From Candidatus Woesearchaeota archaeon (lineage in GTDB: Archaea > Nanobdellota > Nanobdellia > Woesearchaeales > WJKL01), in the NCBI GenBank assembly GCA_019322435.1, contig JAHWIR010000008.1:21647-85646 (forward strand): a stretch of 64,000 bases of DNA, given 5' to 3'. The translations under genes were made by a program, and so were the position numbers. Shown here one piece after another: positions 11,388-42,640 of the stretch (its first letter is position 1; each line of letters starts with the position of its first letter). The notes under the pieces were generated by a model. The model worked only from the letters and a program-made list of their open reading frames with translations, did not search any database and was not told the origin of the DNA.

Positions 11388-12327
11388 CCTCCTTTGCTGG
11401 CTGTTTTTTATTTCTTGTAGCAGCTATTATAGGGATATTGCCTCCGCTATCTAATAAGTTTCTTTCATTTTTTCTAAATTTAGATGATAAAAATTCGAAA
11501 ATAAGATTGACTATATGGATACCAGTAACATTATTTGAATCAAATGAAGAGTTATACTCTACAAAATCTATGCCTTTTACATCTCCCTTCTTTCCTAGGT
11601 CGCAAATCAACCTTCTCGCAATACTATAATCAATGCCTGCTGGTTCTGGATAATTTGTCGCTGGTGCAATACTTGGATCTAAAACATCTATATCAAAAGA
11701 TAAATAAATTGGTTCATTTTCTTTAATCTTATCTAATAATGAAGCTGGACCTTTATCTTTCAGCTCAGTAGATGTTATCACTGTATTTTGATCTTTAATG
11801 GAATCTTCAATCCCTGGACCTGTATTGAGATTTCCACGCAGACCACAATGAATTACCTTTTGTACATTAGGTAATTTACTAACATACCTCATTACAGAGC
11901 CATTTGGAAAATTAGGTTCATTAAGATAATCACTATGGGCATCTAATTGAACTACAGTAATCTCGTTTTCATATGCAGACACTGCTGGAAAAGTTATATA
12001 ATGATCTCCTCCTAAAATAAGAGGAAAGCTATTTGAATCTAATATCTTTTTAATTTCCTTCTTTATTGTTTCTTCAATGGGTCTTGAACTAACATCTATA
12101 TTTCCAGTATCATTAAAAGTGATTCCATCTAAGATATATCCTCTTTCAGGATTATACATTTTTATAGGCTGTGCATTACCGTCTATATTAGAATATCTTT
12201 CACTAAGTTTTCTTAATGCGTCTGGACTTTTTTCTAAATTGGATCCTATCCCTACCACAGATACTATCTCACTGCATTTAGACCTATCTTTTAGATATGG
12301 CTGATTCAAGAAAGTTGGCTTAATCAT
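11380..12327 (-). CDS. Arginase/agmatinase/formiminoglutamase-family ureohydrolase
   Basis: The binuclear-Mn motifs GGDHYITFP, DAHSD and SFDIDVLDPS are present. The start is assigned to the internal ATG (MIKPTFL), which has a GAGGT Shine-Dalgarno sequence 7 nt upstream. The ORF track extends instead to an upstream GTG at 12351. Confidence 0.8.
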   Translation of the reverse strand: MIKPTFLNQPYLKDRSKCSEIVSVVGIGSNLEKSPDALRKLSERYSNIDGNAQPIKMYNPERGYILDGITFNDTGNIDVSSRPIEETIKKEIKKILDSNSFPLILGGDHYITFPAVSAYENEITVVQLDAHSDYLNEPNFPNGSVMRYVSKLPNVQKVIHCGLRGNLNTGPGIEDSIKDQNTVITSTELKDKGPASLLDKIKENEPIYLSFDIDVLDPSIAPATNYPEPAGIDYSIARRLICDLGKKGDVKGIDFVEYNSSFDSNNVTGIHIVNLIFEFLSSKFRKNERNLLDSGGNIPIIAATRNKKQPAKEDD

Positions 12328-12343
12328 TTTTACCTCTGAAATT

Positions 12344-13453
12344 TTAATCACCCTCCCCTATTGATTGATTTTTGTTATCCGCAGTAGCTATTAAAACAAT
12401 TATATCGTCCTCTTTTTTGATATTTCCTAATTCCTCTAAAGAAGCGTAAACCGATCTTGAAGAAAATTCTAAGTCAGGAAGTTCTTGTTCATGAGTTGCT
12501 TCTATTTGCTGATCTGTAACAGAAACCGCCACTCCTTTTGTTTTACTTAAAATATCCATTATTTTAAAGAAATTAAAGCAGGTATCTGATGCAATTGCTT
12601 CAGCTTTAGATTCTATTGGGTTCTCAATCACTACAATATCCATCCTATTTTCGATAGTATAGCCTTGTGTAATTGGGTCTGCTCCTTGTATTTGGACTGT
12701 CACAAATTTTGGCATTTTATCAGTCAGACCCATGTCTACCAAATCATTAAACCCATAATATTGAGCAACAATATTGCCACCACTACCTACAGGGATAACA
12801 ACCAAATCTGGAATATCCTGCATTTGAAGGAATATTTCATAAGCAATGGTCTTAAGTCCTTGTGAATAAGGAAGATTAGTAACAGGAAAACCATTATAGA
12901 CTGAATCATCAGATCCACAGAATTCGAAAAAATGTTCATAACTTCTAATTAAGTCTTGATCATATATTACTTCAGATTGTTTTTCTAATTTTTCTTTTTT
13001 TGGTGTGGGGGTGTCTTCAGGAACAAATACTATTGACTCTAATCCTGCTTTGCTTGCATAATATCCTAGAGATATTGCTGCGTTTCCTGTTGAAGGGATT
13101 GCTATTCTATTTTTTCCTGAGCTTAAAGCGTCAGAAACAAGCATAACCATTCCTCTATCTTTAAAACTTTGGGTTGGATTTTTCCCCTCATCTTTTAAGT
13201 AAATACCTTCCCGTAATTTCAATAAGGGCGTGCTTCCTTCTTCATCAGTAATTTTATCTACTATATCAAAAGGGATGCAATTCTTAAATCTCTTAATACC
13301 TTTTTCATCTGAGGTTAATGATTGTGGCAAAGTGTATGATGGAGTCCAAATATTCATTGGAACGCCACCAATAGACAATTCTGGATGCTTGTGTTCATTA
13401 GGATTGTTTGCCCTAAAGCTACAAACATCACAAGATAGATAATCTATTTTCAT
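12344..13453 (-). CDS. Threonine-synthase-like PLP enzyme (fold-type II, Trp-synthase-beta superfamily)
   Basis: The hallmark KDEGKNPTQSFKDRG PLP-lysine motif is present, and the 369-aa protein carries N-terminal CDVC cysteines. Confidence 0.8.
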   Translation of the reverse strand: MKIDYLSCDVCSFRANNPNEHKHPELSIGGVPMNIWTPSYTLPQSLTSDEKGIKRFKNCIPFDIVDKITDEEGSTPLLKLREGIYLKDEGKNPTQSFKDRGMVMLVSDALSSGKNRIAIPSTGNAAISLGYYASKAGLESIVFVPEDTPTPKKEKLEKQSEVIYDQDLIRSYEHFFEFCGSDDSVYNGFPVTNLPYSQGLKTIAYEIFLQMQDIPDLVVIPVGSGGNIVAQYYGFNDLVDMGLTDKMPKFVTVQIQGADPITQGYTIENRMDIVVIENPIESKAEAIASDTCFNFFKIMDILSKTKGVAVSVTDQQIEATHEQELPDLEFSSRSVYASLEELGNIKKEDDIIVLIATADNKNQSIGEGD

Positions 13454-30962: not shown

Positions 30963-32420
30963 TTAGGATAGAATCTTGGTTACCTTTTTTTTGAGCTTTT
31001 GATAAGAATTCAAACTTTTTTGAACTCCTTTGCCAGTCCAACAATATGTACATAATTTCTCTTTAGGAATGCCTATTGCTTTAACCATATCATCCAATAA
31101 CATATATCTCAAGGAAGTTACATCTATGTCTTTAGCAATCCAGTCAACCATTTTTTTATATTTTTCAGAATTTGGATCAAGGTATTCAGAAACATCTTCA
31201 ATATCCCTGCCTTCTAAAGCTCTTATTGCTCTTCTTGCAACTAACTCGTCAATGCTTCTGGTAGATAAGTTATACATACAGGGAAACATCAAAGGAGGAC
31301 AAGCAGGCCTTATATGAATTTCTTTAGCACCTGCACTTTTTAATTTAGTGACTGTAAAATTTTTGAGTTGTGTGCCTCTAACAATAGAATCATCACATAA
31401 AATTATTCTGTTGTCTTTGATTGTATCTTCGTTAGCTATTAATTTCATTAAAGCAATTCTATCCCTCTCTTCTTGCGATGGCGGGGTGTAGCTCCTGCCA
31501 TAACCCGGGGTGTATTTAAGTAAAACCCTTCTAAATGGTTTTCCAGATTCCATGGAATATCCAATAGCATGGGCTGTTCCTGAATCAGGAACACCTGAAA
31601 CAACATCTATTTCAACATTGTCGCGCATTGCTAAACATTTTCCGCAATTTTCTCTGACTTTCTCTACATTAATGCCTTCATAAGACGAAGCTGGAAATCC
31701 TGTATAAATCCACAAGAATGCACATATCTTGTTAATGTGGTTTCCTTTTTTCTTAATATCAATGCCTTTTTTATCAAGAAAAATTATTTCTCCTGGTTTA
31801 ATAAACTTTTTTATCTTCAAACCCAAATTAGGAAAGGAACATGTTTCACTGGCAATTGCTATTTCATCTTCTTTTTCACCAACAACCAAGGGTGTAACTC
31901 CATTTCTGTCTCTTGCAGCATATATTCCCTCTTTTGTTAATAAAAGCAGAGAGATAGAGCCTTGAATCTTATCATACATTTTTTCAATACCATCTATAAC
32001 AGAATCTCCTTGATTTATTAAGTTGGCAATAAGTTCTGCGCTGTTAACTTCTCCATCAATTACTTCACTAAAAGAAAAACCTTGTTTTATTAATTCTTTA
32101 ACCAACACTTCTTTATTTGTTATAAGACCAGCATAACATATTGAAAAAAACCCAAATCTGCTTTCAAAACTTAATGGCTGAGGATCTTTATCAGATATTA
32201 CGCCTATGCCTAGATTACCTTTTATTTCTTCAATCCATTTATGAAATCTTGATTTAAATTGTGAATTAGAAATAACATGGATCTTTTTAACAGGTTTTCC
32301 ATTTTCATCAATAAAAGCTATTCCTCCATATTCTGTACCTAAGTGAGTATGGTAATCTGTTCCATGGTATAAAGTAGAGATACAGTCATCATTGCTTACA
32401 ACACCAAATATTCCGCTCAT
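30963..32420 (-). CDS. purF: Amidophosphoribosyltransferase-like protein (PurF family) with Ser replacing the N-terminal Cys nucleophile
   Basis: The N-terminus is MSGIFGVVS, where PurF normally has MCGI(V/F)G. An Ntn-GATase-like domain is followed by a PRTase domain with the PRPP loop ILCDDSIVRGTQ. Confidence 0.8.
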   Translation of the reverse strand: MSGIFGVVSNDDCISTLYHGTDYHTHLGTEYGGIAFIDENGKPVKKIHVISNSQFKSRFHKWIEEIKGNLGIGVISDKDPQPLSFESRFGFFSICYAGLITNKEVLVKELIKQGFSFSEVIDGEVNSAELIANLINQGDSVIDGIEKMYDKIQGSISLLLLTKEGIYAARDRNGVTPLVVGEKEDEIAIASETCSFPNLGLKIKKFIKPGEIIFLDKKGIDIKKKGNHINKICAFLWIYTGFPASSYEGINVEKVRENCGKCLAMRDNVEIDVVSGVPDSGTAHAIGYSMESGKPFRRVLLKYTPGYGRSYTPPSQEERDRIALMKLIANEDTIKDNRIILCDDSIVRGTQLKNFTVTKLKSAGAKEIHIRPACPPLMFPCMYNLSTRSIDELVARRAIRALEGRDIEDVSEYLDPNSEKYKKMVDWIAKDIDVTSLRYMLLDDMVKAIGIPKEKLCTYCWTGKGVQKSLNSYQKLKKKVTKILS

Positions 32421-32563: not shown

Positions 32564-33061
32564 ATGGGGTTGGGGGAAGATCTTAGGGAATTTATGGATG
32601 AGCTTGAAGAGAATATCCCTTTAAGAGCGCCGTTGAGAAACGTAAATTGGACTGATACAATTTCTTTACCATATGGATCATGTCAAGAATGTCAAAAAGA
32701 GCCAGTGAGAGGCAGAATTCGGTTATATGATTTAATTGGTTTAATTGAATTTCATGAAAAAGAAGAAGATAAACCAGGCCTTGCACTTGTGAATTTTGCT
32801 CCTTATCTTGAGATTGCTGCTTGCAACGATCATTTAAAAAGAGCAATAAAAGAGTGTTTTCTTGGAACTTTTGAGTATCATGAAGATGGGAAAGACGCAT
32901 TGCATATAAGGGCTTATGACAATGTACTAATTCGTGTAGATCATTCTGATGGTCTGAGATATATTAAATTATCATATCCCCTTCATCCTTCAATTGATCA
33001 GAAAGCACGTTTTCTAGGGAAAATTTTTGAAGATATAATAATAAAGATAGAAAATATTTAG
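32564..33061 (+). CDS. Hypothetical protein (165 aa)
   Basis: ORF only; a CQEC pair is present. Confidence 0.45.
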   Translation: MGLGEDLREFMDELEENIPLRAPLRNVNWTDTISLPYGSCQECQKEPVRGRIRLYDLIGLIEFHEKEEDKPGLALVNFAPYLEIAACNDHLKRAIKECFLGTFEYHEDGKDALHIRAYDNVLIRVDHSDGLRYIKLSYPLHPSIDQKARFLGKIFEDIIIKIENI

Positions 33062-33084: not shown

Positions 33085-34383
33085 TTATTTGATCAAATGT
33101 TTTTCTTTATCCTGCTGTCCTTTCCATTCTGGGAATTGTCTTGTTTTCATCTCTATGTAATGCGCTGCTTTTTCTGCTTTTAGTTTTGCTTCTGCAACTG
33201 TAGATGCTGTTGCAAGAACAAGCCCCATTCTTCTGTTAATATGTGCTTCTGGCTTTCCAAAGGACATGAAGCTTATTCCTTTTCTATTCAAGGCGTTGAA
33301 TATATTGCCAAATGCAGGGTCCCAGCCTTCATAAGGGCTTAAAACAACATGTGTTGCTCCAGCTGTAAGTGATGGGACAACATTATAACCAAGCCGTTCC
33401 TCAGTTGGAACAGGCATTCCTGTTATTGCACGTACGTGCAGAGCTGTTTGTGAATATCCTACCTGGTGTGTTGCAAAAGTTACCATTCCTGTATCATGCG
33501 GTCTTGGAGAACACTCGTTTCCATAGACTTTATCGCCTTTGACAAAAAGCTCGCATCCAAAAAGGCCCATGCCTCCTAGAGCATCTGTTATTTTTTTTGC
33601 TGCTTCATAGATGCCTTTTTCAGCTTTCTCACTTACCTCTGCCATTTGCCAGCTTGAATGATAATCTCCTCCTCTTGTTTGATAATGGCCGACAGGTCTT
33701 GGGAAAGATGTTACGATTTTTCCATTTTCATCAAGATGCCTGACAGCTAGTTCAGTAACTTCAATGTCAAAAGGTATGTGCTGCTCAACAATCATCTTTT
33801 CTCCAGAGCCTCTTGCTTCGTTCTTTGCTTTTTCATAGGCTGCTTTGACGTCTTCTGGACCTTTCACAAAGCTTGAGCCATGGCCTGAGCTGTCCATTAT
33901 TGCCTTGACCCAGCAAGGATAGTTAAGTTTTTCACATGCATCTTTCATTTCATCTAAGGTTGTAGTATAGATGTATTTTGATGTTTCTACACCTGCTCCT
34001 CTTATTAATTCTCTTATTCTTTCACGCTGCATTGCTGCGTGTGTTGCCTTTGCATTTGGAATAATATTCCAGCCTTCTTTTTCCAGATCAAACAGCATGT
34101 CTAGATTTATTGCTTCAATCTCAGGAACAATAAAGTCTGGCTTTTCTTTTTCAATAATAGAACGAAGAAATCCTGCCTCCTTCATATTGCCTGCATAGAA
34201 CTTATGTGCAACCTGGTGACCAGGAGCATTCATATAACGATCAACACCTATTGTGTAGAAACCCATACGCTGCGCTTCAATTATAACTTCTTTTCCAAGC
34301 TCTCCGCAGCCAAGCAGCATTATTTTTGCAGCTTTGCCTGCTGGTTGTGAGAATAATACATTTCTCATCAATAACACCCCCAA
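33085..34383 (-). CDS. purT: Formate-dependent phosphoribosylglycinamide formyltransferase (ATP-grasp)
   Basis: The N-terminal KIMLLGCGELGKEV segment (PurT KVMLLGSGELGKEV) and an ATP-grasp body are present. Confidence 0.85.
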   Translation of the reverse strand: MGVLLMRNVLFSQPAGKAAKIMLLGCGELGKEVIIEAQRMGFYTIGVDRYMNAPGHQVAHKFYAGNMKEAGFLRSIIEKEKPDFIVPEIEAINLDMLFDLEKEGWNIIPNAKATHAAMQRERIRELIRGAGVETSKYIYTTTLDEMKDACEKLNYPCWVKAIMDSSGHGSSFVKGPEDVKAAYEKAKNEARGSGEKMIVEQHIPFDIEVTELAVRHLDENGKIVTSFPRPVGHYQTRGGDYHSSWQMAEVSEKAEKGIYEAAKKITDALGGMGLFGCELFVKGDKVYGNECSPRPHDTGMVTFATHQVGYSQTALHVRAITGMPVPTEERLGYNVVPSLTAGATHVVLSPYEGWDPAFGNIFNALNRKGISFMSFGKPEAHINRRMGLVLATASTVAEAKLKAEKAAHYIEMKTRQFPEWKGQQDKEKHLIK

Positions 34384-34505
34384 ATTTATTTATATTTTGA
34401 ATAGAAAAATATTCATATAAATATTTATTGGTTTTTTTCAATATATGTTTGATATCCACAACAATATTTATATATGAGTTATTTTTCAGTTAATTTGGGG
34501 GGAAG

Positions 34506-35582
34506 ATGCGAATAGTTGATGTTAATGGAGAATGTATAACAGAGGAGTCTTTTTCTTCTAAAAAAGATTTGATTATGGCGATGCATAAGCTTGGAGAAAG
34601 ATACTTGTCTCATGTCTATAGAGCCGGCAAGCTAACTACTGATATGGATGGTGTTATTATATATGATGATGGTGCTATGACTCTTACAAATCTTGTTGGA
34701 GGGGAAGAAGCTGAGAAAAAGTTTAGTGAATATGCTGGATTAAATATCAAAGCTGTTTCCGAAGGGCAAACTTGTTATTGCTGGTATGCTCCTAGTTTGT
34801 TTGGGTCTCAGTTATTAGAAGGGCTGTCTCCTGAGATTAATAGAGAGGTTGGGAAACATCTTCGGCTTATTCCAGGAATTGAAGAGTATATGGACAGACT
34901 TATTGACGGGCTTGGGTATGATGTTAGTGCTGTAACTGCAGGTCATCAGGAAGCTGCAGAAGAGGTTTCTAGAAGAGTAGGTATAGACAAGACAGTTGGA
35001 ATCCAACTTGGAGTTAATTCTAGATGCTATGATGGAACTATAGTAAGATTTATTGGAGGAGAGTATAAGCTTGGTGCTGTTGAAGATATTTTAGTCCATA
35101 ATGGCCGGTGTCTTGGAACACATGTGGGAGATAGCTGGTCTGATATTGAGACCTTAGCTGGAATTCCAAATTCTATTGCATTTAATCCAGGCTGCGAGCT
35201 TGCATTGAAGAATGCAAAGATTTCTATTATGGGTGTTTCTCAATTAGGGCTGCTGCCTTTTTTTGATTATATGGGAAAATATGATGAGGAATTAAAAGAA
35301 GAGGATTTGCCTCAAACAACAATAATAATGCAAGAAGGAAGCAATGGAGAGGGTAATTGGTTATCGGATTTATTGCAGGAGTCAAGGAAAGTAAAAAAAG
35401 AGGTTATTAGAAATATAATTGATCAAAGAGATGGACCTAGTTCAAAAGTAGAAGAAAGGATTAGGCATAGCTTAGTGCAGTCAGGCACAGATTTCCAAAC
35501 TAAACTTGAAAGGTTTATGGATAATGAAGAGTTTGATGCCTATGCAAAGAAAGCTTATGCAGAATTAGAGGGAGAAATATAA
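34506..35582 (+). CDS. HAD-superfamily hydrolase (phosphatase-like)
   Basis: Motif I is TDMDGVIIYDDG (DxDG) and motif IV is HVGDSWSD. Confidence 0.55.
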   Translation: MRIVDVNGECITEESFSSKKDLIMAMHKLGERYLSHVYRAGKLTTDMDGVIIYDDGAMTLTNLVGGEEAEKKFSEYAGLNIKAVSEGQTCYCWYAPSLFGSQLLEGLSPEINREVGKHLRLIPGIEEYMDRLIDGLGYDVSAVTAGHQEAAEEVSRRVGIDKTVGIQLGVNSRCYDGTIVRFIGGEYKLGAVEDILVHNGRCLGTHVGDSWSDIETLAGIPNSIAFNPGCELALKNAKISIMGVSQLGLLPFFDYMGKYDEELKEEDLPQTTIIMQEGSNGEGNWLSDLLQESRKVKKEVIRNIIDQRDGPSSKVEERIRHSLVQSGTDFQTKLERFMDNEEFDAYAKKAYAELEGEI

Positions 35583-36484
35583 TGCAAAGAGTTGTTTGTG
35601 TTGGATCATTGAATGTGGATACACAAGTATATGTGGAAAGATTTTGTGAAAATGATGAAGAACAGATTATAAGAGATATGTCTGTGGGCTCTGGAGGGCA
35701 AGCAGGCAATATTGCTGCTGGATTGGGGAAGCTTGGAAAGAAATCTTTTTTCTTTGGGAATATTGGAGAGGATGCATATACTTCGATGCTGACAAAGGAT
35801 TTTGATGACTGTAATGTGGATTACTCTTTTGCTAAAAGAACAAAGAATCCAAACAATGCTGTTGTTTCTTTGATTGACAAAGATGGAGAAAGAAGATTAT
35901 ATGCTTGTAATCATGTTGATCTTTCTCAGGCAGATTTTCCTGACAAACTTTTTGAGAATACAGCATTTATTGTGTTTACAAGTCTTATTAAAGAAGATGT
36001 TATTGAGCTGTATGTTGATATTGCAAAAAAAGCTAAAGAAAAAGGAATAAAGATTGCTCTAGATCCTGGGGGTATCCTTGCTCAGCTTGGTTTTGAAAGA
36101 TTAAGGCCTCTTCTTGAATTGACTGATTATTTTTTTCCAAGCAAAAGAGAGGCAGAATTGTTAGTCGGGGGTATAGGGAATATTGCTAAGATCTGTAAAT
36201 TGATTCTTAATGTTATAATTAGCTGTGGAAAAGAAGGACCAAGGGTTTTTGAGGATGGAGAGGAGATAACTAATTTTGAGGTAAAGCAGGCTAAGAAAAG
36301 AGTAGATACAACAGGAGCAGGTGATTGTTTTGCAGCTGCTTATATTTCAGCAATTATTGATGGGAAGAATAATGCAGAAGCAGCATGCTTTGCTAATTGT
36401 GCTGCAGCACTTTCAATTGAGAAGAAAGGCGCGAGGTCAATGCCAACTCAAAAAGAAGCGGAGGAGTTTATGAATGCAAGATAA
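35582..36484 (+). CDS. PfkB-family carbohydrate/nucleoside kinase (ribokinase-like)
   Basis: A CVGSLNVD N-terminus, a GG dipeptide and the DTTGAGDCFAAAY anion-hole/catalytic motif are present. Confidence 0.8.
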   Translation: MQRVVCVGSLNVDTQVYVERFCENDEEQIIRDMSVGSGGQAGNIAAGLGKLGKKSFFFGNIGEDAYTSMLTKDFDDCNVDYSFAKRTKNPNNAVVSLIDKDGERRLYACNHVDLSQADFPDKLFENTAFIVFTSLIKEDVIELYVDIAKKAKEKGIKIALDPGGILAQLGFERLRPLLELTDYFFPSKREAELLVGGIGNIAKICKLILNVIISCGKEGPRVFEDGEEITNFEVKQAKKRVDTTGAGDCFAAAYISAIIDGKNNAEAACFANCAAALSIEKKGARSMPTQKEAEEFMNAR

Positions 36485-39413
36485 TATCTTTAGAATATCC
36501 ATTGATTCAAAAGAGAAGAGTTCAGAAGCAAAGGTATTGGAAAAAAAGATAAAAAGCCTGGGTTATGATGTATCCTTAGATATTAGCAAGGTTTATACAA
36601 TTCAATATGATTTTGCTGAAGAGCAGATAAAAGAAATAGCTGATGCTTTATTTAATCCTGTTGTTGAAGTTCCGAGAATTAATTCTCCACTTCAAAAAGG
36701 GTTTGACTGGGCATTGGAGCTGGGATTTTTGCCTGGTGTAACTGATAATGTTGCAAACACAGCTGCTGAGATTATTAATGACCTTTTCAAAATCAATATA
36801 GGGAGGAACAAGGTATTTACTACAAAGGTTCTGTTTATTAAATCAGCTAATCTAACAAAAGAAGATATTGAGATTGTTGCCAAGGAGCTTATCAATATCT
36901 TGATAGAAAGATTCCATATAAAACATTATGATGAGTATAGTAGAGGGGATGGCATGGATTATATTGTGCCAAAGGTTAATCTTTCTCAAACACAGGATGT
37001 TATTGAGATTGATCTTGATATAAGTGATGAAGAATTAATTGAGCTAGGAAAAAAAGGAATTCTTGATCCTGAAACAAATACAAGAAGAGGGCCTCTTGCT
37101 TTGGATCTTGATTATTTCAAAGCAGTTCAAGCTTATTTTAGAAAAGAAGGGAGAAAGGCAACTGATATTGAGATCGAATCTATTGCCCAAACCTGGAGCG
37201 AGCATTGCAAGCACACAATATTTGCAGGACAGATGGATGATATTGAAGAAGGGATATACAAGAGATTCATAAGAGCTGCAACAATGAAGGTAAGAGAGGA
37301 GCTAGGAGAAAAGGATTTTTGCTTGTCTGTTTTTAAGGATAATTCCGGAGGCATTGTTTTTGATGATAATTATATGATCACTGATAAGACAGAGACCCAC
37401 AACAGCCCTTCTGCTTTGGATCCTTTTGGAGGATCAATAACTGGAATTGTTGGGGTTAATAGAGATACAATTGGTTTTGGGTTAGGAGCATTGCCTATTG
37501 TTAATAAATATGGTTTTTGTTTTGGGCGGCCTGAAGATAAAAGCATTATCTACAGGGGGCAGAACAAGACAAATGCTGCTCTTACACCAAGAAGGATAAT
37601 GGATGGTGTTGTGCATGGAGTTAATGTTGGAGGAAATTGCAGCGGGATTCCAACACCAGCTGGTTTTGTTTATTTTGATGATTGTTATAAAGGAAAGCCA
37701 TTGATTTTTGTAGGAACAGTTGGATTGATGCCAAGAAAGCTTCCTAATGGCAAAATAAGCCAGGAGAAAAAAGCAATGCCTGAAGATCATGTTGTTGTGA
37801 TTGGAGGCAGGGTTGGAAAAGATGGTATTCATGGAGCTACGTTTTCATCAGAAGCAATGGATGAAGGAAGTCCTGCTACTGCTGTTCAGATTGGAGATCC
37901 AATTACTCAAAAGAAATTATCAGATGCAGTGGTTAAGGAAGCAAGGAATAAGGGGCTTTACAATAGTATAACTGATAATGGGGCTGGCGGATTAAGCTGT
38001 TCTGTTGCAGAGATGGCAGAGGAATGTGGAGGATTTGTTGTTGAGCTAGAAAAGGTTCCTTTAAAATATCCTGGATTGCAGCCATGGGAGACCTGGATCT
38101 CAGAATCTCAGGAGAGAATGACTGTTGCTGTGCCTGATGACAAACTTGAGGAATTTAATAATCTCATGGAAAGCAGAGGTGTTGAATCAACTGTTATAGG
38201 CAAGTTTAATGATACGAGCAGAGCAATTGTTAATTTTAATGGAAAAGAGATATTTAATATTGACATAGATTTTCTGCATAATGGTTTGCCAAAAAGAAAA
38301 TTAGAAACAAAACCTTATCCATATAATACAGAAGAACCAGAGATTATTGTTGATAATCAGCAGGAATTATTTGAAAAAGTGTTGGGCAGCCATAATAATT
38401 GCAGTTTTGAGTTTATTTCAAAACAATATGATCATGAAGTTCAGAATAATTCTGCAATAAAACCTTTGCAAGGAAAAGGAAGAGTCAATGGAGATGCTTG
38501 CGTTGTTAAGCCTTTGTTTAATAGTAATAAATGTTTTGCAATATCACAGAGCTTATATCCAAGATTAAGTGAAATTAGCTGTTATGATACGGCTGCATGT
38601 GCAATTGATACAACAATAAGGAATTGTATTGCTGTTGGAGGAAATATAAATCATCTTGCGCTGCTTGATAATTTCTGCTGGTGCAGTTCAACTGAGCCTG
38701 AAAGATTAGCACAGCTAAAGGATGCTGCAAAAGCATGTTATGATTATGCTACTGTATATAAAACGCCATTTATTTCTGGAAAAGACAGTATGTTTAATGA
38801 TTTCAAAGGATTTGATGAGGAGAATAATCCTGTAAAGATCTCTGTTTTGCCAACATTATTGATTTCTGGCATTGGTGTGATTGAAGATGTAAATAATACA
38901 TGCACTATGGATTTAAAGATTCCAGGAGATGTTGTTTATATTATTGGAGAGACAAAAGATGAATGCGGTGGAAGTGAGTTTTATCATACTCTTGGAAAAA
39001 AAGGCGGAAAAAGTCCAAAAGTTGATGCTGAAAAAGCTAGAAGATTGTATGAAAAGGTATATGAATTGCATAAGAAAGGCATGTTTAGTGCTTGTGCTTC
39101 TGTTGGCAAAGGAGGATTATTGATTACACTGGCGAGGATGGCAATAGCTGGCCAGCTTGGGGTTGATGTTGATGTTAGTGGAGTAGCAGAGCTGCCTGTT
39201 GAGAGAATATTTTATTCAGAATCGCAGTCAAGATTTATTGTAACAATTGATCCTAAGAATAAAAAAGAGTTTGAAGAAGCTATGGATGCTATTGAGATTG
39301 GTGTTGTTAATGACAATGGGAGTGTTGTTGTGAAGAACAGCGGGGATGAGGTTATTAGCAGTGATGTTGAGGAATTGGGGAGAATTTATAGAGAGAGGTT
39401 TAAGGATTATTAG
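36474..39413 (+). CDS. purSL: Phosphoribosylformylglycinamidine synthase, PurS-PurL fusion
   Basis: An N-terminal ~80-aa PurS-like domain is followed by the PurL AIRS/AIRS_C duplicated domains. The protein is 979 aa. Confidence 0.85.
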   Translation: MQDNIFRISIDSKEKSSEAKVLEKKIKSLGYDVSLDISKVYTIQYDFAEEQIKEIADALFNPVVEVPRINSPLQKGFDWALELGFLPGVTDNVANTAAEIINDLFKINIGRNKVFTTKVLFIKSANLTKEDIEIVAKELINILIERFHIKHYDEYSRGDGMDYIVPKVNLSQTQDVIEIDLDISDEELIELGKKGILDPETNTRRGPLALDLDYFKAVQAYFRKEGRKATDIEIESIAQTWSEHCKHTIFAGQMDDIEEGIYKRFIRAATMKVREELGEKDFCLSVFKDNSGGIVFDDNYMITDKTETHNSPSALDPFGGSITGIVGVNRDTIGFGLGALPIVNKYGFCFGRPEDKSIIYRGQNKTNAALTPRRIMDGVVHGVNVGGNCSGIPTPAGFVYFDDCYKGKPLIFVGTVGLMPRKLPNGKISQEKKAMPEDHVVVIGGRVGKDGIHGATFSSEAMDEGSPATAVQIGDPITQKKLSDAVVKEARNKGLYNSITDNGAGGLSCSVAEMAEECGGFVVELEKVPLKYPGLQPWETWISESQERMTVAVPDDKLEEFNNLMESRGVESTVIGKFNDTSRAIVNFNGKEIFNIDIDFLHNGLPKRKLETKPYPYNTEEPEIIVDNQQELFEKVLGSHNNCSFEFISKQYDHEVQNNSAIKPLQGKGRVNGDACVVKPLFNSNKCFAISQSLYPRLSEISCYDTAACAIDTTIRNCIAVGGNINHLALLDNFCWCSSTEPERLAQLKDAAKACYDYATVYKTPFISGKDSMFNDFKGFDEENNPVKISVLPTLLISGIGVIEDVNNTCTMDLKIPGDVVYIIGETKDECGGSEFYHTLGKKGGKSPKVDAEKARRLYEKVYELHKKGMFSACASVGKGGLLITLARMAIAGQLGVDVDVSGVAELPVERIFYSESQSRFIVTIDPKNKKEFEEAMDAIEIGVVNDNGSVVVKNSGDEVISSDVEELGRIYRERFKDY

Positions 39414-39414
39414 A

Positions 39415-41526
39415 ATGATTCCAAAAGTATTAATCATGTCAGGATATGGTATTAATTGTGAAAGAGAAAGCGCTCATGCATTTAACAAAGCAGGAGCTGA
39501 ATGCGAGATTGTTCATATCAATGATCTTATATCAGGGAAAAGAAAGATGTCTGATTATGATATAATCATGTTTCCTGGAGGATTCTCATATGGAGATGAT
39601 ACTGGATCTGGCAATGCTTTTGCAAATAAAATCAAGGATAATCTGTGGGCAGATTTAACTGAGTTTATTGATTCAGGAAAATTAGTGTTTGGAGTATGTA
39701 ATGGATTCCAGGTTATGACTCATCTTGGGTTATTTGCACTGCCTTCAGGAGATTATGGCAAAAGGATAAATGCACTAGAAGCAAACAACAGCAATCGTTA
39801 TGAATGCAGATGGGTATATCTTAAAAATAATTCAGATTGTGTTTTTACAAAAGGAATTTCTTTAACACATCTTCCTGTTGCGCATGGAGAAGGAAGATTT
39901 GTTTGTGATAAAGAAACTTTAGAGGAATTAAAGCAGAATAATCAGATTGTGTTTAGTTATTGTGGTGAAAATGGGGAGAATGCAAATGGAGAGTATCCTG
40001 TAAATCCAAATGGTGCAATGGCTGATATTGCTGGGATATGTGATAAAACTGGAAGGATTATGGGAATGATGCCTCATCCAGAAAGAGCGCTTTATTCAAT
40101 AAGCGAGCCAGAGTTTCACTTGAAAAAGGAGATTGCAAATAGAGATGAGGAAGAAGTGCCTGAGTTGATTGAAACTAATTTTATGATTTTTAAGAATGCT
40201 GTGGATTTTGTTAAAAACAAACAGGGTGTAAAAATGGATAATATTAATGTCTTGATAATTGGAGGAGGCGGAAGAGAGCATGCTTTGGCATTAAAAGTGA
40301 GTGAAAGCGAGCGTCTTAATAAGTTATTTGCTATTCCTGGAAATCCAGGTATTGGAGTGGTTGCAGAATGTGCTGATGTTGATATAGGGGATAATGATGC
40401 TGTTGTGAATTTTGCAAAAGAAAACAAGATTGAGCTTGTTATTGTTGGTCCAGAGGTTCCGCTTGTGAATGGGGTGGCTGATGAACTGGAAAAGAATGGG
40501 ATAAGGGTGTTTGGTCCTAATAAAGTTGCTGCACAGTTTGAAGGCTCAAAGGCATTTGCCAGAAAATTCATGAAGAAATACAATCTTCCAACTGTTGAGT
40601 TTGAGGAGTTTACAGATTTTGAAGAGGCAAAGAGGTACATACGACGAAAAGGAGCTCCAATTGTTGTTAAGGCTGATGGGCTTGCTGCTGGCAAGGGTGT
40701 TTTTGTTGCAAGCAATGAAGAAGATGCAATTAATTTTACAAAGGAATGTTTAGAGAATAATAAGTTTGGAGAAGCGTCATCAAAGGTTGTAATAGAAGGG
40801 TGTTTGGTTGGAGAAGAAGCATCTTATCTGGTGTTTATGGATTCTAAAACATTCAAGCCAATGGTTTATTCCCAAGATCATAAGGCTGTCTATGAAGGAG
40901 ATAAAGGGCCTAATACAGGAGGAATGGGAGCTTATTCTCCTGCACCTATTTTAGATGGGCTGGAAGAGGAGATGGAAGAGAAGATTATCAAGCCATTTTT
41001 AAATGGGATAAAGCAGGAAGGGATTGAATATAAAGGGGTGCTTTATGTTGGGTTGATGAAAACAAAAGACGGGCTTAAGATACTTGAATTTAACTGCAGG
41101 TTTGGTGATCCTGAAACTCAGGTTATACTTCCTAGATTAAGAACTGATATAATCAAAGTGATGAATGCTGTGATTGATGGAAAACTGGAAAGTATTAATA
41201 TTGAATGGTCTGATGAACACTGTGTTTCTGTTGTTCTTGCATCAGGAGGCTATCCTGGGTCTTATGAAAAAGGAAAACTAATAACCGGCCTTGATAAGGT
41301 TGATAGATCACAGGTAATACATGCAGGAACTAAAAAGGATAATGGTAAGATATTGACAAACGGAGGAAGGGTGTTGAATATTGTCTGCCTTGGAAAGAGC
41401 TTAAAGGATGCTGTTGATACAGCTTATTCAAAGATAGATTATATTAATTTTGATGGCATGTATTTTAGGAGGGATATTGCAAAGAAAGAGCTGGATCGAG
41501 GTATGCTAGATGCCGGCAGATTATAA
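39415..41526 (+). CDS. purQD: PurQ (FGAM synthase glutaminase subunit) fused to PurD (phosphoribosylamine-glycine ligase)
   Basis: The N-terminal class-I GATase has GVCNGFQ, HGEGRF and MPHPER. From MDNINVLIIGGGGREHALA onward the sequence is a PurD ATP-grasp domain, with no stop between the two. The start is assigned at the ATG 1 nt after the purSL stop. Confidence 0.85.
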   Translation: MIPKVLIMSGYGINCERESAHAFNKAGAECEIVHINDLISGKRKMSDYDIIMFPGGFSYGDDTGSGNAFANKIKDNLWADLTEFIDSGKLVFGVCNGFQVMTHLGLFALPSGDYGKRINALEANNSNRYECRWVYLKNNSDCVFTKGISLTHLPVAHGEGRFVCDKETLEELKQNNQIVFSYCGENGENANGEYPVNPNGAMADIAGICDKTGRIMGMMPHPERALYSISEPEFHLKKEIANRDEEEVPELIETNFMIFKNAVDFVKNKQGVKMDNINVLIIGGGGREHALALKVSESERLNKLFAIPGNPGIGVVAECADVDIGDNDAVVNFAKENKIELVIVGPEVPLVNGVADELEKNGIRVFGPNKVAAQFEGSKAFARKFMKKYNLPTVEFEEFTDFEEAKRYIRRKGAPIVVKADGLAAGKGVFVASNEEDAINFTKECLENNKFGEASSKVVIEGCLVGEEASYLVFMDSKTFKPMVYSQDHKAVYEGDKGPNTGGMGAYSPAPILDGLEEEMEEKIIKPFLNGIKQEGIEYKGVLYVGLMKTKDGLKILEFNCRFGDPETQVILPRLRTDIIKVMNAVIDGKLESINIEWSDEHCVSVVLASGGYPGSYEKGKLITGLDKVDRSQVIHAGTKKDNGKILTNGGRVLNIVCLGKSLKDAVDTAYSKIDYINFDGMYFRRDIAKKELDRGMLDAGRL

Positions 41527-42640
41527 AAAAGCAGGAGTTAATATTGAGCTGGGAGATGATGCTTCAAAGATCTTGTATGAAGCTGCAAAGCTTAGTTTTG
41601 AAAACAGGCAGGGCAATATAGGAGAGATTATAGTTCCTTTTGATGATTTTTCTGGTGTAAGGGCGATTGATGTTAGCAAATTACCTAAGGGAAGCCTGAT
41701 GTGCATGGGTTTTGATGGAATTGGAACCAAGGTTGAGATTGCCCAGAGAATGAATAATCATAGAACAATTGCTTTTGATCTTTTTGCAATGGTTTGTGAT
41801 GATGCTATTGTAAGGGGGGCAGAGCCTGTTTTGGTTGGAAGTGTTTTGGATGTAAATTCCTTGGGAAGTGATGAAGAGCCTCATATAGAAAAGTTAAAAG
41901 AGCTGGCTGAGGGCTATGTTGCTGCTGCAAAAGCTGCAAATGTTGCTGTTATTAATGGAGAACTTGCTGAATTAGGAAAAGGTGTTGGTGGATTTGGAGA
42001 ATTTAATTATAATTGGTGCTCAGCTGTTGTTTGGTTTGCTAATAAAGACAAACTGTTTACTGGAAAAGAGATCAAAGCAGGAGATTCTATTGTTGTTTTA
42101 GAGGAAAAAGGATTTAGATCAAATGGATTGTCATTAGTTAGAAAGGTTTTTGAGAGTGAGCATGGAGAAGAGTGGCATAATGTTGAGCTTGATGGAGAGA
42201 AATTAGGCAATTTGGTGCTAGAGCCTTCAACAATATATTCTAAAGCTGTTGTTCATATGCATGGTGGTTTTAGGACAGATGGGTGTTGTAAGATAAATGG
42301 TGTTGTGCATATTACTGGAGGAGGGATTCCTGGAAAACTGGGAAGGATATTGAAGCCTTCTGGATTAGGAGCAGAACTTAATGATTTATTTGAACCATGC
42401 AAAGCAATGCAGTACTGCCAGAGATTAGGAGAGGTTAGTGATAAAGAAGCCTATAAAACCTGGAATATGGGGCAGGGCCTTGCTATAATAACACCAGAGC
42501 CTGAGAAGGTTATTCAAGAAGCTGAGAAGTTTGGGATTAAAGCAAAGACTGCTGGAAAGGTTGTTTTGGTTCCTGGAATAAGGATTAAAAGCAAAGGTGC
42601 TTTTGATAAAGGCAGGGATTTGGTTTTTGGGATTGATTAG
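41510..42640 (+). CDS. purM: Phosphoribosylformylglycinamidine cyclo-ligase (AIR synthetase)
   Basis: YKKAGVNIELGDD N-terminus and AIRS domains. Confidence 0.9.
   Translation: MPADYKKAGVNIELGDDASKILYEAAKLSFENRQGNIGEIIVPFDDFSGVRAIDVSKLPKGSLMCMGFDGIGTKVEIAQRMNNHRTIAFDLFAMVCDDAIVRGAEPVLVGSVLDVNSLGSDEEPHIEKLKELAEGYVAAAKAANVAVINGELAELGKGVGGFGEFNYNWCSAVVWFANKDKLFTGKEIKAGDSIVVLEEKGFRSNGLSLVRKVFESEHGEEWHNVELDGEKLGNLVLEPSTIYSKAVVHMHGGFRTDGCCKINGVVHITGGGIPGKLGRILKPSGLGAELNDLFEPCKAMQYCQRLGEVSDKEAYKTWNMGQGLAIITPEPEKVIQEAEKFGIKAKTAGKVVLVPGIRIKSKGAFDKGRDLVFGID

What the first reader, a model, noticed from the sequence alone, without database searches (positions are those of the whole stretch)
34506..41526. 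Unusual purine-gene fusions (purS-purL; purQ-purD) with a HAD phosphatase and PfkB kinase embedded in the cluster
PurS is fused to the N-terminus of PurL in a 979-aa protein. PurQ, the glutaminase partner of PurL, is fused instead to PurD, an ATP-grasp ligase with no functional link to PurQ, in a 703-aa protein. The fused ORF has no stop between the PurQ and PurD domains. A HAD hydrolase and a ribokinase-family kinase sit between purT and purSL. They might supply or salvage a ribose-phosphate or aminoimidazole intermediate.
Basis: seen in the sequence. Interest (0 to 1): 0.5.

Follow-up and report, generated by a model that had tools for sequence, protein, structure and literature searches.

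The report
Fused purine-synthesis genes in a Woesearchaeote
A small-genome archaeon carries a tight operon for the first five steps of purine synthesis; one of its two gene fusions has been known since 2011, and the other (PurQ-PurD) is real but rare and arose when a stop codon was lost between neighbouring genes, and a conserved phosphatase-kinase gene pair of unknown role sits in the same operon.

Summary
Window 34506-42640 (+) is one translationally coupled operon: HAD-IB phosphatase, PfkB kinase, a 979-aa PurL, a 703-aa PurQ-PurD fusion and PurM. purT and a PurF-like gene lie divergently upstream.

- **"PurS-PurL"** is the already described mdPurL/PurSL form (Brown 2011). It is widespread in DPANN archaea and in Methanococcus. 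Its N-terminus folds like the double PurS-like N-domain of large PurL.
- **PurQ-PurD** is real and rare. I found at least 5 distinct junctions, all in one Woesearchaeota clade, and none elsewhere among 1.84 billion representative proteins.
  - The 5-residue linker (QGVKM) is the former stop codon, a 9-nt Shine-Dalgarno spacer and the old purD start. A relative still has TGA-ggtgttaat-ATG at the same place.
  - Closest relatives carry purQ followed by a purF::purD fusion, so the PurF part was lost first.
  - PurQ is also fused to PurM in other lineages, which fits fusion by adjacency rather than a special PurQ-PurD chemistry.
- **GenBank** annotates only PurD for this contig (427 aa, ATT start), so PurQ is missing from the public record.
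- **The HAD-PfkB pair** belongs to a small DPANN-only family and sits in pur clusters in 7 of 8 contexts examined. Its function is unresolved; ribose salvage towards PRPP is my best guess.

Overall this is a new variant of a known kind, of modest interest.

The parts
30963..32420 (-). PurF-like gene (PurF'), 485 aa. The N-terminal nucleophile Cys is replaced by Ser (MSGIFG). The PRPP-binding motif (ILCDDSIVRGT) and the Fe-S cysteines are kept.
   Evidence: TIGR01134 gives 228 bits against a cut-off of 350. Sequence. The alignment with canonical PurF and with orthologues from L001 and L003 shows Ser in all three PurF' copies and Cys in both canonical copies. It is the only PurF homologue in the window.
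33085..34383 (-). purT, the formate-dependent GAR formyltransferase (step 3). This is the maximal ORF; the real start is probably a few codons in.
   Evidence: NF006766 gives 471 bits against a cut-off of 339. Pfam finds the ATP-grasp and PurT_C domains.
34384..34505 (.). Divergent intergenic region between purT and the HAD operon. It holds two conserved AT-rich TATA-like boxes (ATATAAATATTTATTG and AATATTTATATATGAGTTATTT) and a GGGGGG Shine-Dalgarno-like run before the HAD start.
   Evidence: Blocks are identical between the window and L002, although the surrounding sequence is diverged. Their promoter function is inferred, not tested.
34506..35582 (+). HAD-IB phosphatase, 358 aa. It has all four catalytic motifs, a C1 cap, and a helical extension of about 90 residues at the C-terminus.
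   Evidence: Pfam HAD. Invariant D46, D48, K188 and D209 and nearly invariant T144 and D213 across 38 homologues. AF2 model pLDDT 96. Nearest folds are SerB phosphoserine phosphatases, AF1437 and cytosolic 5'-nucleotidase III. TIGR00338 serB gives only 27.5 bits against a cut-off of 144.
35582..36484 (+). PfkB (ribokinase-family) kinase, 300 aa. Its start overlaps the HAD stop.
   Evidence: Pfam PfkB 162 bits. Best NCBIfam hits are ribose-1-phosphate kinase (134 bits, cut-off 330) and ribokinase (125 bits, cut-off 300), both below cut-off. Best solved relatives are ribokinases. Motifs GSLNVD8, GGQAGN38 and GAGD245 are present.
36474..39413 (+). purSL (mdPurL), 979 aa. The N-domain is residues 1-160 (36474-36953), the FGAR-AT linker is 204-247 (37083-37214), and the FGAM synthetase core is 223-978 (37140-39407). 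There is no glutaminase domain.
   Evidence: AF2 of residues 1-200 gives pLDDT 91.5 with two beta-alpha-beta-alpha-beta halves. The 18 best Foldseek hits are all large PurL (Salmonella 1t3t and others; human PFAS 9nb3), with E from 3e-5 to 1e-3. PurS 1vq3 matches with probability 0.95. All full-length proteins among the 120 homologues listed are about 950-1020 aa.
39415..40221 (+). PurQ glutaminase domain of the fusion, residues 1-269, complete to its native C-terminus (...FVKNK).
   Evidence: GATase_5 270 bits and TIGR01737 203 bits against a cut-off of 178. Triad motifs GVC95NGFQ and MPH221PE223R are present. It is 81-82% identical to the free-standing PurQ of L002 and L003.
40222..40236 (+). 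Linker QGVKM. It consists of the former purQ stop position (CAG), a 9-nt spacer with a GGTG Shine-Dalgarno-like motif, and the former purD start ATG (40234-40236).
   Evidence: Window: AAA CAG GGT GTA AAA ATG GAT AAT. L140: AAA TGA ggtgttaat ATG TTG GAT AAC, with purQ and purD as separate genes. The L002 spacer is taa gatggttaata ATG.
40237..41526 (+). PurD (GAR synthetase, step 2) domain of the fusion, residues 275-703, plus the stop codon.
   Evidence: TIGR00877 548 bits; Pfam GARS_N, GARS_A and GARS_C. Best PDB match is PurD 2yrw at 463 bits. GenBank annotates only 40243-41526 as a 427-aa PurD.
41510..42640 (+). purM (AIR synthetase, step 5). It overlaps the purQ-purD stop by 17 nt.
   Evidence: Pfam AIRS and AIRS_C. 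TIGR00878 gives 198 bits, below its cut-off of 236. It is 76% identical to the PurM of L003. Overlaps.

Best explanation
**What it is.** The region is a compact operon of a Woesearchaeota (DPANN) genome. Together with the divergent purT and PurF' genes it encodes steps 1-5 of de novo purine synthesis, from PRPP to AIR.

**purSL.** This is the known mdPurL form. The double PurS-like N-domain and the linker are built into the synthetase, so only the glutaminase has to dock.

**The PurQ-PurD protein.** It supplies that glutaminase from its first 269 residues and carries a complete GAR synthetase behind a 5-residue linker.

**How the fusion arose.**
1. The ancestral order in this clade was purSL, purQ, purF::purD, as in the closest relatives.
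2. The PurF moiety was lost. That left purQ, a 9-nt in-frame spacer and purD, a state preserved in relative L140.
3. The purQ stop was then replaced by a sense codon, so the spacer and the old start codon are now read as QGVKM.

**How it most likely works (inferred).** The product is bifunctional, with both domains working as they do when separate. Free PurD may also be made from the retained Shine-Dalgarno motif and ATG inside the linker. The fusion is most likely a tolerated or mildly useful consequence of operon compaction (fixed 1:1 expression, PurD tethered to the FGAM synthetase complex) and not new chemistry.

**The HAD-PfkB pair.** It is a conserved DPANN gene pair that travels with pur clusters. 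My best guess is that the phosphatase and the ribokinase-type kinase salvage ribose from nucleotides or sugar phosphates into ribose 5-phosphate, and hence PRPP, for the pathway.

**Shown:** domain content, junction homology, distribution, and gene linkage. **Inferred:** enzymatic activity, complex formation, internal initiation, and the substrates of HAD and PfkB.
For: **Domains and operon**
- Domains and their scores.
- Operon spacers are -1, -11, +1 and -17 nt, and every start is preceded by a GAGG/GGAGG-like motif.

**mdPurL**
- Described by Brown 2011.
- All full-length proteins among the 120 listed homologues are the long form.
- The N-domain fold matches large PurL.

**The fusion is real**
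- Five distinct PurQ-PurD junctions from independent assemblies: the window, P0001, P0002 (= L001), P0006 and L135.

**Origin of the fusion**
- L002 and L003 have purQ followed by purF::purD.
- L140 has purQ, TGA, ggtgttaat, ATG, purD, matching the window's CAG GGT GTA AAA ATG.
- The PurD tree places WINDOW_QD as sister to a PurF-PurD form with 99% bootstrap. The other PurQ-PurD forms are nested among PurF-PurD forms.

**Adjacency rather than specific coupling**
- PurQ is fused to PurM in L133 and L137.
- purQ and purD are adjacent but unfused in two MAGs labelled bacterial.

**The PurQ domain is not decaying**
- It is 81-82% identical to free PurQ, against 85% for PurD and 84% for PurSL, and the triad motifs are intact.

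**HAD-PfkB linkage**
- The pair lies beside pur genes in the window, L002, L132, L133, L135, L136 and L137; only L134 lacks them.
- PfkB::PurD fusions occur in L138.
- Ribokinases are the nearest solved relatives of the kinase.
- 5'-nucleotidase III is among the nearest folds of the HAD.
- Yeast ribose salvage starts with a HAD nucleotidase (PMC4039369).
Against: - No reads were available, so the one codon that makes the fusion in this contig (CAG at 40222) is not independently verified.
- The order of events (PurF loss, then stop loss) and the number of independent origins rest on a distance tree of one domain. Linker homology among the window, L001 and P0001 could instead mean one origin followed by allele exchange.
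- The recurrence and retention of the fusion over about 23% protein divergence could indicate selection that I cannot measure.
- No activity, complex or expression data exist.
- For HAD-PfkB: both proteins score below every curated equivalog cut-off. The nearest HAD relatives are phosphoserine phosphatases, not nucleotidases. The pair is absent from the L001, L003 and L140 clusters. A phosphatase and a kinase in one operon can also form a futile cycle.
Confidence: 0.75

Rival explanations
1. The fusion in this contig is an assembly or base-calling artefact. The true sequence would have a TAG stop at 40222-40224, and purQ and purD would be separate genes as in L140.
For: A single C-to-T change at 40222 restores a stop. 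TAG is used as a stop by the neighbouring purSL. GenBank annotators did not call the fused protein.
Against: The same architecture occurs in at least four other independent assemblies, each with a different sense codon at the ex-stop position. The spacer is in frame. Consensus errors at a given base are rare. The GenBank call is explained by homology-guided start choice, since it uses an ATT start.
Confidence: 0.04
2. The fusion is adaptive and rewires step 1. After canonical PurF is lost, the remaining PurF' has no cysteine nucleophile and cannot use glutamine. The PurQ glutaminase, tethered to PurD, would then supply ammonia to PurF' as well as to PurL, and PurD would capture the unstable phosphoribosylamine on the spot.
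For: PurF' has Ser at the nucleophile position in the window, L001, L003, L135 and L136. The three PurQ-PurD loci with fetched DNA (the window, L001 and L135) hold no canonical PurF there, whereas L002 and L003 do. E. coli PurF with Cys1 changed to Ser keeps only ammonia-dependent activity (cited in PMC3261824). PurF-PurD fusions in sister lineages suggest that phosphoribosylamine hand-over matters.
Against: Loss of PurF and purQ-purD adjacency are the same event, so their co-occurrence is not independent evidence. PurF' coexists with canonical PurF in L003, so it has some role of its own. L140 lacks the PurF moiety but keeps purQ and purD unfused. PurQ also fuses with PurM. Whole genomes were not searched, so a canonical purF may lie elsewhere. 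There is no structural evidence for a PurQ-PurF' contact.
Confidence: 0.07
3. The locus still behaves as two genes. PurD is made mainly by internal initiation at the retained Shine-Dalgarno motif and ATG (40234). The read-through fusion is a minor or neutral by-product that simply carries the PurQ activity.
For: The linker keeps AGGGTG 7 nt before an in-frame ATG in the window, and GGAGGAGAT before an ATG in L001. This resembles the initiation sites of the other operon genes.
Against: In P0001 the old ATG has become Ile (..PDVKIVDNKM..), and in L135 the spacer is gone (FFKENK|MNVL). Internal initiation is therefore not conserved. PurQ has no stop of its own, so every PurQ molecule must carry PurD.
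Confidence: 0.2
4. The HAD is a phosphoserine phosphatase that supplies serine, and through it glycine and one-carbon units, to the pathway. On this view the PfkB kinase has a separate or unrelated role.
For: The nearest sequence and fold relatives are SerB enzymes. JGI names some members phosphoserine phosphatase. Related pur clusters include SHMT, FolD and 5-formyl-THF cyclo-ligase.
Against: TIGR00338 gives 27.5 bits against a cut-off of 144. The family has its own invariant cap residues (C92, W93, R120) and N- and C-terminal additions. It always sits immediately upstream of the PfkB gene, often overlapping it, which argues for a joint function.
Confidence: 0.2

Closest known systems
mdPurL / PurSL (Brown et al. 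2011, Biol Direct 6:63; Methanococcus maripaludis and M. vannielii, Methanospirillum and others)
   Same: Same architecture: about 200 extra N-terminal residues on a small-PurL core, no glutaminase domain, and a separate PurQ. The window protein is 72% and 69% identical to the two Methanococcus proteins.
   Different: Nothing essential. Here the fold of the N-terminal extension was modelled and shown to match the large-PurL N-domain, which Brown et al. only suspected.
Large PurL (Salmonella FGAM synthetase 1t3t; human PFAS 9nb3)
   Same: The N-domain, linker and synthetase core are all present and in the same order.
   Different: The C-terminal glutaminase domain is not attached to PurL. It is on a separate polypeptide that also carries PurD.
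Small PurL-PurS-PurQ complex (Thermotoga maritima 3d54)
   Same: The glutaminase is a separate subunit that must dock on the synthetase. The PurQ domain matches 3d54 chain D at 94 bits.
   Different: No free PurS is needed, and PurQ carries a 47-kDa passenger at its C-terminus.
Multifunctional PurD proteins: animal trifunctional GARS-AIRS-GART (2qk4), and PurF-PurD, PurN-PurD, PurM-PurD and PurD-PurC-PurE found in this survey
   Same: PurD is joined to another enzyme of the same pathway that does not catalyse the adjacent step.
   Different: The partner here is a glutaminase subunit belonging to a different enzyme complex. I found no report of this combination in the literature searches, and it was absent from the 150 best hits of the representative library.
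PurF' (PurF paralogues lacking the N-terminal cysteine; Brown et al. 2011)
   Same: A PurF-like protein with an intact phosphoribosyltransferase part but no Cys nucleophile. Ser at that position occurs in Mlab_0150.
   Different: Brown et al. reported PurF' as a class in Crenarchaeota. Here it is the only PurF homologue in the cluster after the canonical PurF domain was lost.
Yeast nucleotide degradation and ribose salvage (Phm8 HAD nucleotidase; Xu et al. 2013, PMC4039369)
   Same: A HAD phosphatase starts a route that returns ribose to ribose 5-phosphate. This is a working analogy for the HAD-PfkB pair.
   Different: No homology was shown between Phm8 and this HAD subfamily. The archaeal pair is operon-linked to de novo purine genes, and its substrates are unknown.

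Membership tests
mdPurL / PurSL | Small-PurL core (two AIRS and AIRS_C repeats plus the FGAR-AT linker) with an N-terminal extension of about 200 aa | tested here: met
   TIGR01736 matches residues 223-978 and the linker lies at 204-247. Total length is 979 aa, against a 718-position PurL model.
mdPurL / PurSL | The N-terminal extension adopts the PurS-like or large-PurL N-domain fold | tested here: met
   AF2 pLDDT 91.5. The top 18 PDB fold hits are all large PurL, and PurS 1vq3 matches with probability 0.95. By sequence alone the test is not met: Pfam PurS gives 19.7 bits against a cut-off of 22.2, and the profile finds no PDB sequence hit.
mdPurL / PurSL | No fused glutaminase domain; no separate purS needed | tested here: inconclusive
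   The protein ends at the synthetase core. There is no second PurS-like region in the 64-kb window, but the rest of the genome was not available.
PurQ (FGAM synthetase glutaminase subunit) | Score above the curated equivalog cut-off, and the Cys-His-Glu triad | tested here: met
   TIGR01737 gives 202.7 bits against a cut-off of 177.8. Motifs GVC95NGFQ and H221-P-E223 are present. Their assignment as triad residues comes from established knowledge of the family.
PurD (GAR synthetase) | All three GARS domains and a score above the equivalog cut-off | tested here: met
   TIGR00877 gives 548 bits against a cut-off of 288. GARS_N, GARS_A and GARS_C are all full length.
PurF (glutamine PRPP amidotransferase) | N-terminal cysteine nucleophile and a score above the equivalog cut-off | tested here: not met
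   For ORF 30963-32420, TIGR01134 gives 228 bits against a cut-off of 350, and the N-terminus is MSG, not MCG. It is a PurF' paralogue.
HAD superfamily phosphatase | Motifs I-IV: DxD, S/T, K and GDxxxD | tested here: met
   D46, D48, K188 and D209 are invariant and T144 and D213 nearly invariant across 38 homologues.
Phosphoserine phosphatase SerB | Score above the equivalog cut-off | tested here: not met
   TIGR00338 gives 27.5 bits against a cut-off of 144. SerB is only the nearest fold.
Ribokinase / ribose-1-phosphate kinase | Score above the equivalog cut-off; substrate specificity | tested here: not met
   TIGR02152 gives 124.6 bits against a cut-off of 299.65, and NF053626 gives 134 against 330. 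PfkB-family membership is met (162 bits). The substrate cannot be tested with these tools.
Functional FGAM synthetase complex (PurSL plus the PurQ domain) | PurQ docks on PurL and its glutaminase is activated | not testable with these tools
   No complex prediction or assay was possible. The inference rests only on intact domains and on the absence of another purQ in the window.

The most novel reading that the evidence does not exclude
In these streamlined archaea the entry into purine synthesis is rewired in two linked ways.

1. HAD-PfkB is an unrecognised feeder module that turns salvaged nucleotides or pentose phosphates into ribose 5-phosphate and PRPP for the pathway. Independent PfkB::PurD fusions in another lineage echo this link.
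2. After canonical PurF is lost, the cysteine-less PurF' works with the PurQ-PurD protein. One glutaminase then serves two amidotransferase reactions, and PurD captures phosphoribosylamine directly.
Probability: 0.07. Interest if true: 0.75.

Novelty: new variant of a known kind. Interest (0 to 1): 0.35.

Why it matters
- **Practical.** The public record of this genome annotates only PurD and omits PurQ. Automated metabolic reconstructions would therefore score the organism as lacking a step of purine synthesis. Such gaps feed directly into claims that DPANN archaea are auxotrophic.
- **Evolutionary.** The locus is a clean, sequence-resolved example of how multifunctional enzymes arise in compact operons. 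All three states survive in close relatives: a fused partner lost, a separate gene behind an in-frame spacer, and the stop-less fusion.
- **Biochemical.** Two things deserve an assay. One is a conserved, DPANN-restricted HAD-PfkB pair tied to purine clusters. The other is a PurF paralogue without its cysteine that may be the only first-step enzyme left in these genomes.

None of this overturns current understanding of the pathway.

Tried and rejected
- A profile of the PurSL N-terminus against PDB sequences found nothing meaningful. Only the fold search worked.
- The first literature search for 'PurSL' returned papers on purslane.
It gave one candidate, L092, which looks like a truncated PurQ fused to a PurM-like protein and not to PurD (not checked against Pfam).
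Its two apparent full-length hits (L004, L006) turned out to be adjacent, unfused purQ and purD in MAGs labelled bacterial.
- The word-indexed protein search missed the L135 fusion, so the counts of fusions are lower bounds.
- The exhaustive representative search showed no protein covering both domains. Clustering at 50% identity can hide fused members behind unfused representatives.
- P0259 (704 aa) looked like a possible distant PurQ-PurD but is DegV-PurD.
- The GenBank contig itself could not be retrieved by exact look-up of P0003.
- The afdb50 fold library was unavailable.
- A Biopython bootstrap run timed out and was replaced by a numpy implementation.
- No Rfam family and no tRNA were found in the window, so no riboswitch explains the operon's regulation.
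- The 165-aa ORF between PurF' and purT has no family and is unrelated to the ORFs at that position in relatives.

Full report
**1. Observation.** ORFs lie at 34506-35582, 35582-36484, 36474-39413, 39346-41526 and 41510-42640 on the + strand. purT (33085-34383) and a 485-aa gene (30963-32420) lie on the - strand. Pfam and NCBIfam confirm the following:
- a HAD hydrolase;
- a PfkB kinase;
- a 979-aa PurL whose curated model starts only at residue 223;
- an ORF that contains a complete PurQ (GATase_5, residues 26-289 of the 726-aa frame) directly followed by a complete PurD (residues 301-716);
- PurM.

The five + strand genes are separated by -1, -11, +1 and -17 nt, and each start is preceded by a GAGG-like motif, so this is one translationally coupled operon. 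No Rfam family and no tRNA were found in the window.

**2. Source.** Proteins identical to the HAD, PurSL and PurD parts are in GenBank as MBW2996207.1, MBW2996209.1 and MBW2996210.1. They come from a 91,420-bp contig of a Candidatus Woesearchaeota MAG. The rest of the window is ordinary archaeal housekeeping: RNA polymerase subunits, NusA, ribosomal proteins S12, S7 and S8e, aIF2-alpha, GINS and S-layer proteins.

**3. "PurS-PurL".**
- Brown et al. 2011 described exactly this form as mdPurL. It has about 200 extra N-terminal residues, suspected to replace PurS, and was found in Methanococcus, Methanospirillum and others (PMC3261824).
- All full-length proteins among the 120 best homologues listed are about 950-1020 aa. 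They include Woese-, Pace- and Nanoarchaeota and Methanococcus maripaludis (72% identity). JGI already names the protein PurSL.
- By sequence the PurS signal is sub-threshold, and a profile of the N-terminus finds nothing in PDB sequences.
- An AlphaFold model of residues 1-200 is confident (pLDDT 91.5) and shows two beta-alpha-beta-alpha-beta halves.
- Its 18 best PDB fold matches are all large PurL: Salmonella (1t3t and its mutants and complexes) and human PFAS. PurS 1vq3 matches one half.

The protein is therefore large PurL without its glutaminase domain. This part of the finding is already known.

**4. PurQ-PurD: is it real, and how common is it?**
- The word-indexed search of 5.8 billion protein clusters returned three other proteins with both domains: P0001, P0002 and the truncated P0006, at 76-77% identity.
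- A fifth, 693-aa example turned up in the context of a HAD homologue (L135). Counts are therefore lower bounds.
- All five come from different assemblies and have different junction sequences.
- An exhaustive HMMER pass over 1.84 billion representatives found no protein covering both domains among the best 150 hits. Long PurD proteins there are fused to PurN, PurM, PurF, DegV or PfkB instead.
- In two MAGs labelled bacterial, purQ and purD are adjacent but separate.
- I found no paper describing the fusion.

**5. PurQ-PurD: anatomy and origin.**
- The closest relative (L002; PurSL 84%, PurD 85%, HAD 82% identical) has the same gene order. There, however, PurQ ends ...FVKNK-TAA and is followed after 11 nt by an 889-aa PurF::PurD fusion.
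- PurF::PurD is the prevalent state in this clade.
- Relative L140 lacks the PurF moiety and has purQ ...AAG AAT AAA TGA ggtgttaat ATG TTG GAT AAC AAA, with purD as a separate gene behind a 9-nt in-frame spacer.
- The window reads ...AAA AAC AAA CAG GGT GTA AAA ATG GAT AAT. The linker QGVKM is therefore the ex-stop, the same spacer with its GGTG Shine-Dalgarno-like motif, and the old start codon.
- L001 (GGA GGA GAT GTT AAT ATG TCT GAC AAT AAA) and P0001 (PDVKIVDNK) look like the same spacer read through. L135 joins ...FFKENK directly to MNVL.
- A bootstrapped neighbour-joining tree of the PurD domain puts the window's PurQ-PurD with L002's PurF-PurD (99%). The L135 form falls inside a different 100% clade, and P0001 falls among other PurF-PurD forms (77%). 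This suggests repeated origin or allele exchange. A single-domain distance tree cannot decide between the two.
- PurQ is fused to PurM in two other lineages (L133, L137).
- The fused PurQ domain is as conserved as its neighbours (81-82% to free PurQ) and keeps the triad motifs.

The simplest reading is that fusion follows adjacency in a very compact operon and that the product is bifunctional. Internal initiation of PurD at 40234 is possible here and in L001, but it is not conserved in P0001 or L135.

**6. Annotation gap.** GenBank's PurD for this contig starts MNVLIIGG. That corresponds to the ATT codon at 40243, three codons after the in-frame ATG. Its accession number directly follows that of PurSL, and neither the 703-aa nor the 726-aa translation exists in the 15-billion-protein collection. 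The complete PurQ domain (39415-40221) is therefore unannotated in the public record.

**7. PurF'.**
- The 485-aa gene at 30963-32420 scores 228 bits on the purF equivalog model, against a cut-off of 350.
- It begins MSGIFG, where canonical PurF has MCG. It keeps the PRPP motif and the Fe-S cysteines.
- Orthologues with the same Ser occur in L001, L003, L135 and L136.
- Canonical PurF is found only as the PurF::PurD moiety in L002 and L003. The fetched PurQ-PurD loci and the window have only PurF'.
- Brown et al. described such PurF' paralogues. They also cite that E. coli PurF with Cys1 changed to Ser keeps only ammonia-dependent activity.
- Whether a canonical purF lies elsewhere in these genomes could not be checked.

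**8. HAD-PfkB.**
- The HAD family is small: 39 hits, all Woese-, Pace- or Nanoarchaeota, mostly 340-380 aa, with invariant catalytic motifs and its own invariant cap residues.
- The model is very confident (pLDDT 96). Its nearest folds are SerB phosphatases, the uncharacterised AF1437 and cytosolic 5'-nucleotidase III. It is far below the SerB equivalog cut-off.
- The kinase is closest to ribokinases and ribose-1-phosphate kinases but is below their cut-offs.
- In all eight contexts read, the HAD gene is immediately followed by the PfkB gene. In seven of them the pair sits in a pur cluster. It lies directly before purSL in the window, L002, L132, L133 and L137, and directly after purB in L132, L135 and L136. 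L134 has the pair without pur genes.
- The pair is absent from the L001, L003 and L140 clusters.
- An unrelated lineage with an F-type ATPase has two PfkB::PurD fusions next to an mdPurL.

The linkage is strong evidence for a role connected to purine synthesis, but the substrates are not determined. I favour ribose salvage into ribose 5-phosphate and PRPP, by analogy with the HAD nucleotidase that starts ribose salvage in yeast. A SerB-like supply of serine, glycine and one-carbon units, or a nucleotide-nucleoside cycle, remain open.

**9. Verdict.**
- PurSL is already known.
- PurQ-PurD is a genuine, rare, lineage-restricted domain architecture whose origin can be read from the sequences of relatives. 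It is most likely an ordinary operon-compaction fusion.
- The more interesting leads are the conserved HAD-PfkB module and the cysteine-less PurF' left after the loss of canonical PurF.
- Interest 0.35; new variant of a known kind.

Noticed in passing
window 39415-40242: The GenBank record of this contig annotates only a 427-aa PurD (MBW2996210.1), started at an ATT codon at 40243. The complete PurQ domain upstream in the same frame has no protein entry, so the genome appears to lack purQ in public databases.
   Followed up: yes
window 30963-32420 (-): A PurF paralogue with Ser instead of the N-terminal Cys nucleophile, conserved as MSGIFG in four related loci. It is the only PurF homologue in the window and in the fetched loci that carry the PurQ-PurD fusion.
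   Followed up: partly
L133 9620-11788; L137 13941-15866: PurQ::PurM fusions (722 and 641 aa), one from a Pacearchaeota MAG and one from an unnamed sequencing-run assembly. Each lies directly after HAD-PfkB-purSL. L092 (a truncated 593-aa ORF) looks like another example.
   Followed up: partly
L002 7820-10489; L003 10001-12670; many proteins: PurF::PurD fusions of about 889 aa are the prevalent form in this Woesearchaeota clade. They join the two enzymes that make and consume the unstable phosphoribosylamine. I found no description of them in the searched literature.
   Followed up: partly
L136 13082-14894 (P0012, 922 aa): A triple fusion PurD::PurC::PurE. PurC::PurE fusions of about 500 aa are common in the related clusters (L001, L003, L132, L140).
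   Followed up: no
L138 8001-10202 and 11815-14010: Two PfkB::PurD fusion genes in one pur cluster that also holds mdPurL, purQ and purB, on a contig with F-type ATP synthase genes (probably bacterial). The kinase part is only 21% identical to the window's PfkB.
   Followed up: partly
window 36474-39413: The Woesearchaeota mdPurL is 72% identical to that of Methanococcus maripaludis and 69% to that of M. vannielii. This is as close as many DPANN homologues and suggests lateral transfer between methanogens and DPANN archaea.
   Followed up: no
window 34384-34505: Two AT-rich boxes containing the near-palindrome AAATATTTAT are conserved exactly between the window and L002 in the divergent purT/HAD spacer. 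They are probably the two TATA boxes, or possibly a shared operator.
   Followed up: partly
window 8968-13453 (-): A run of genes for an Orn/DAP/Arg decarboxylase, a class I/II aminotransferase, an arginase-family enzyme and a PALP enzyme, followed by a radical-SAM protein and a 461-aa protein without family. It may be a polyamine or amino-acid modification cluster.
   Followed up: no
window 32564-33061 (+): A 165-aa ORF between PurF' and purT with no Pfam or NCBIfam match. It is unrelated to the ORFs that occupy this position in L003, L136 and L002.
   Followed up: partly
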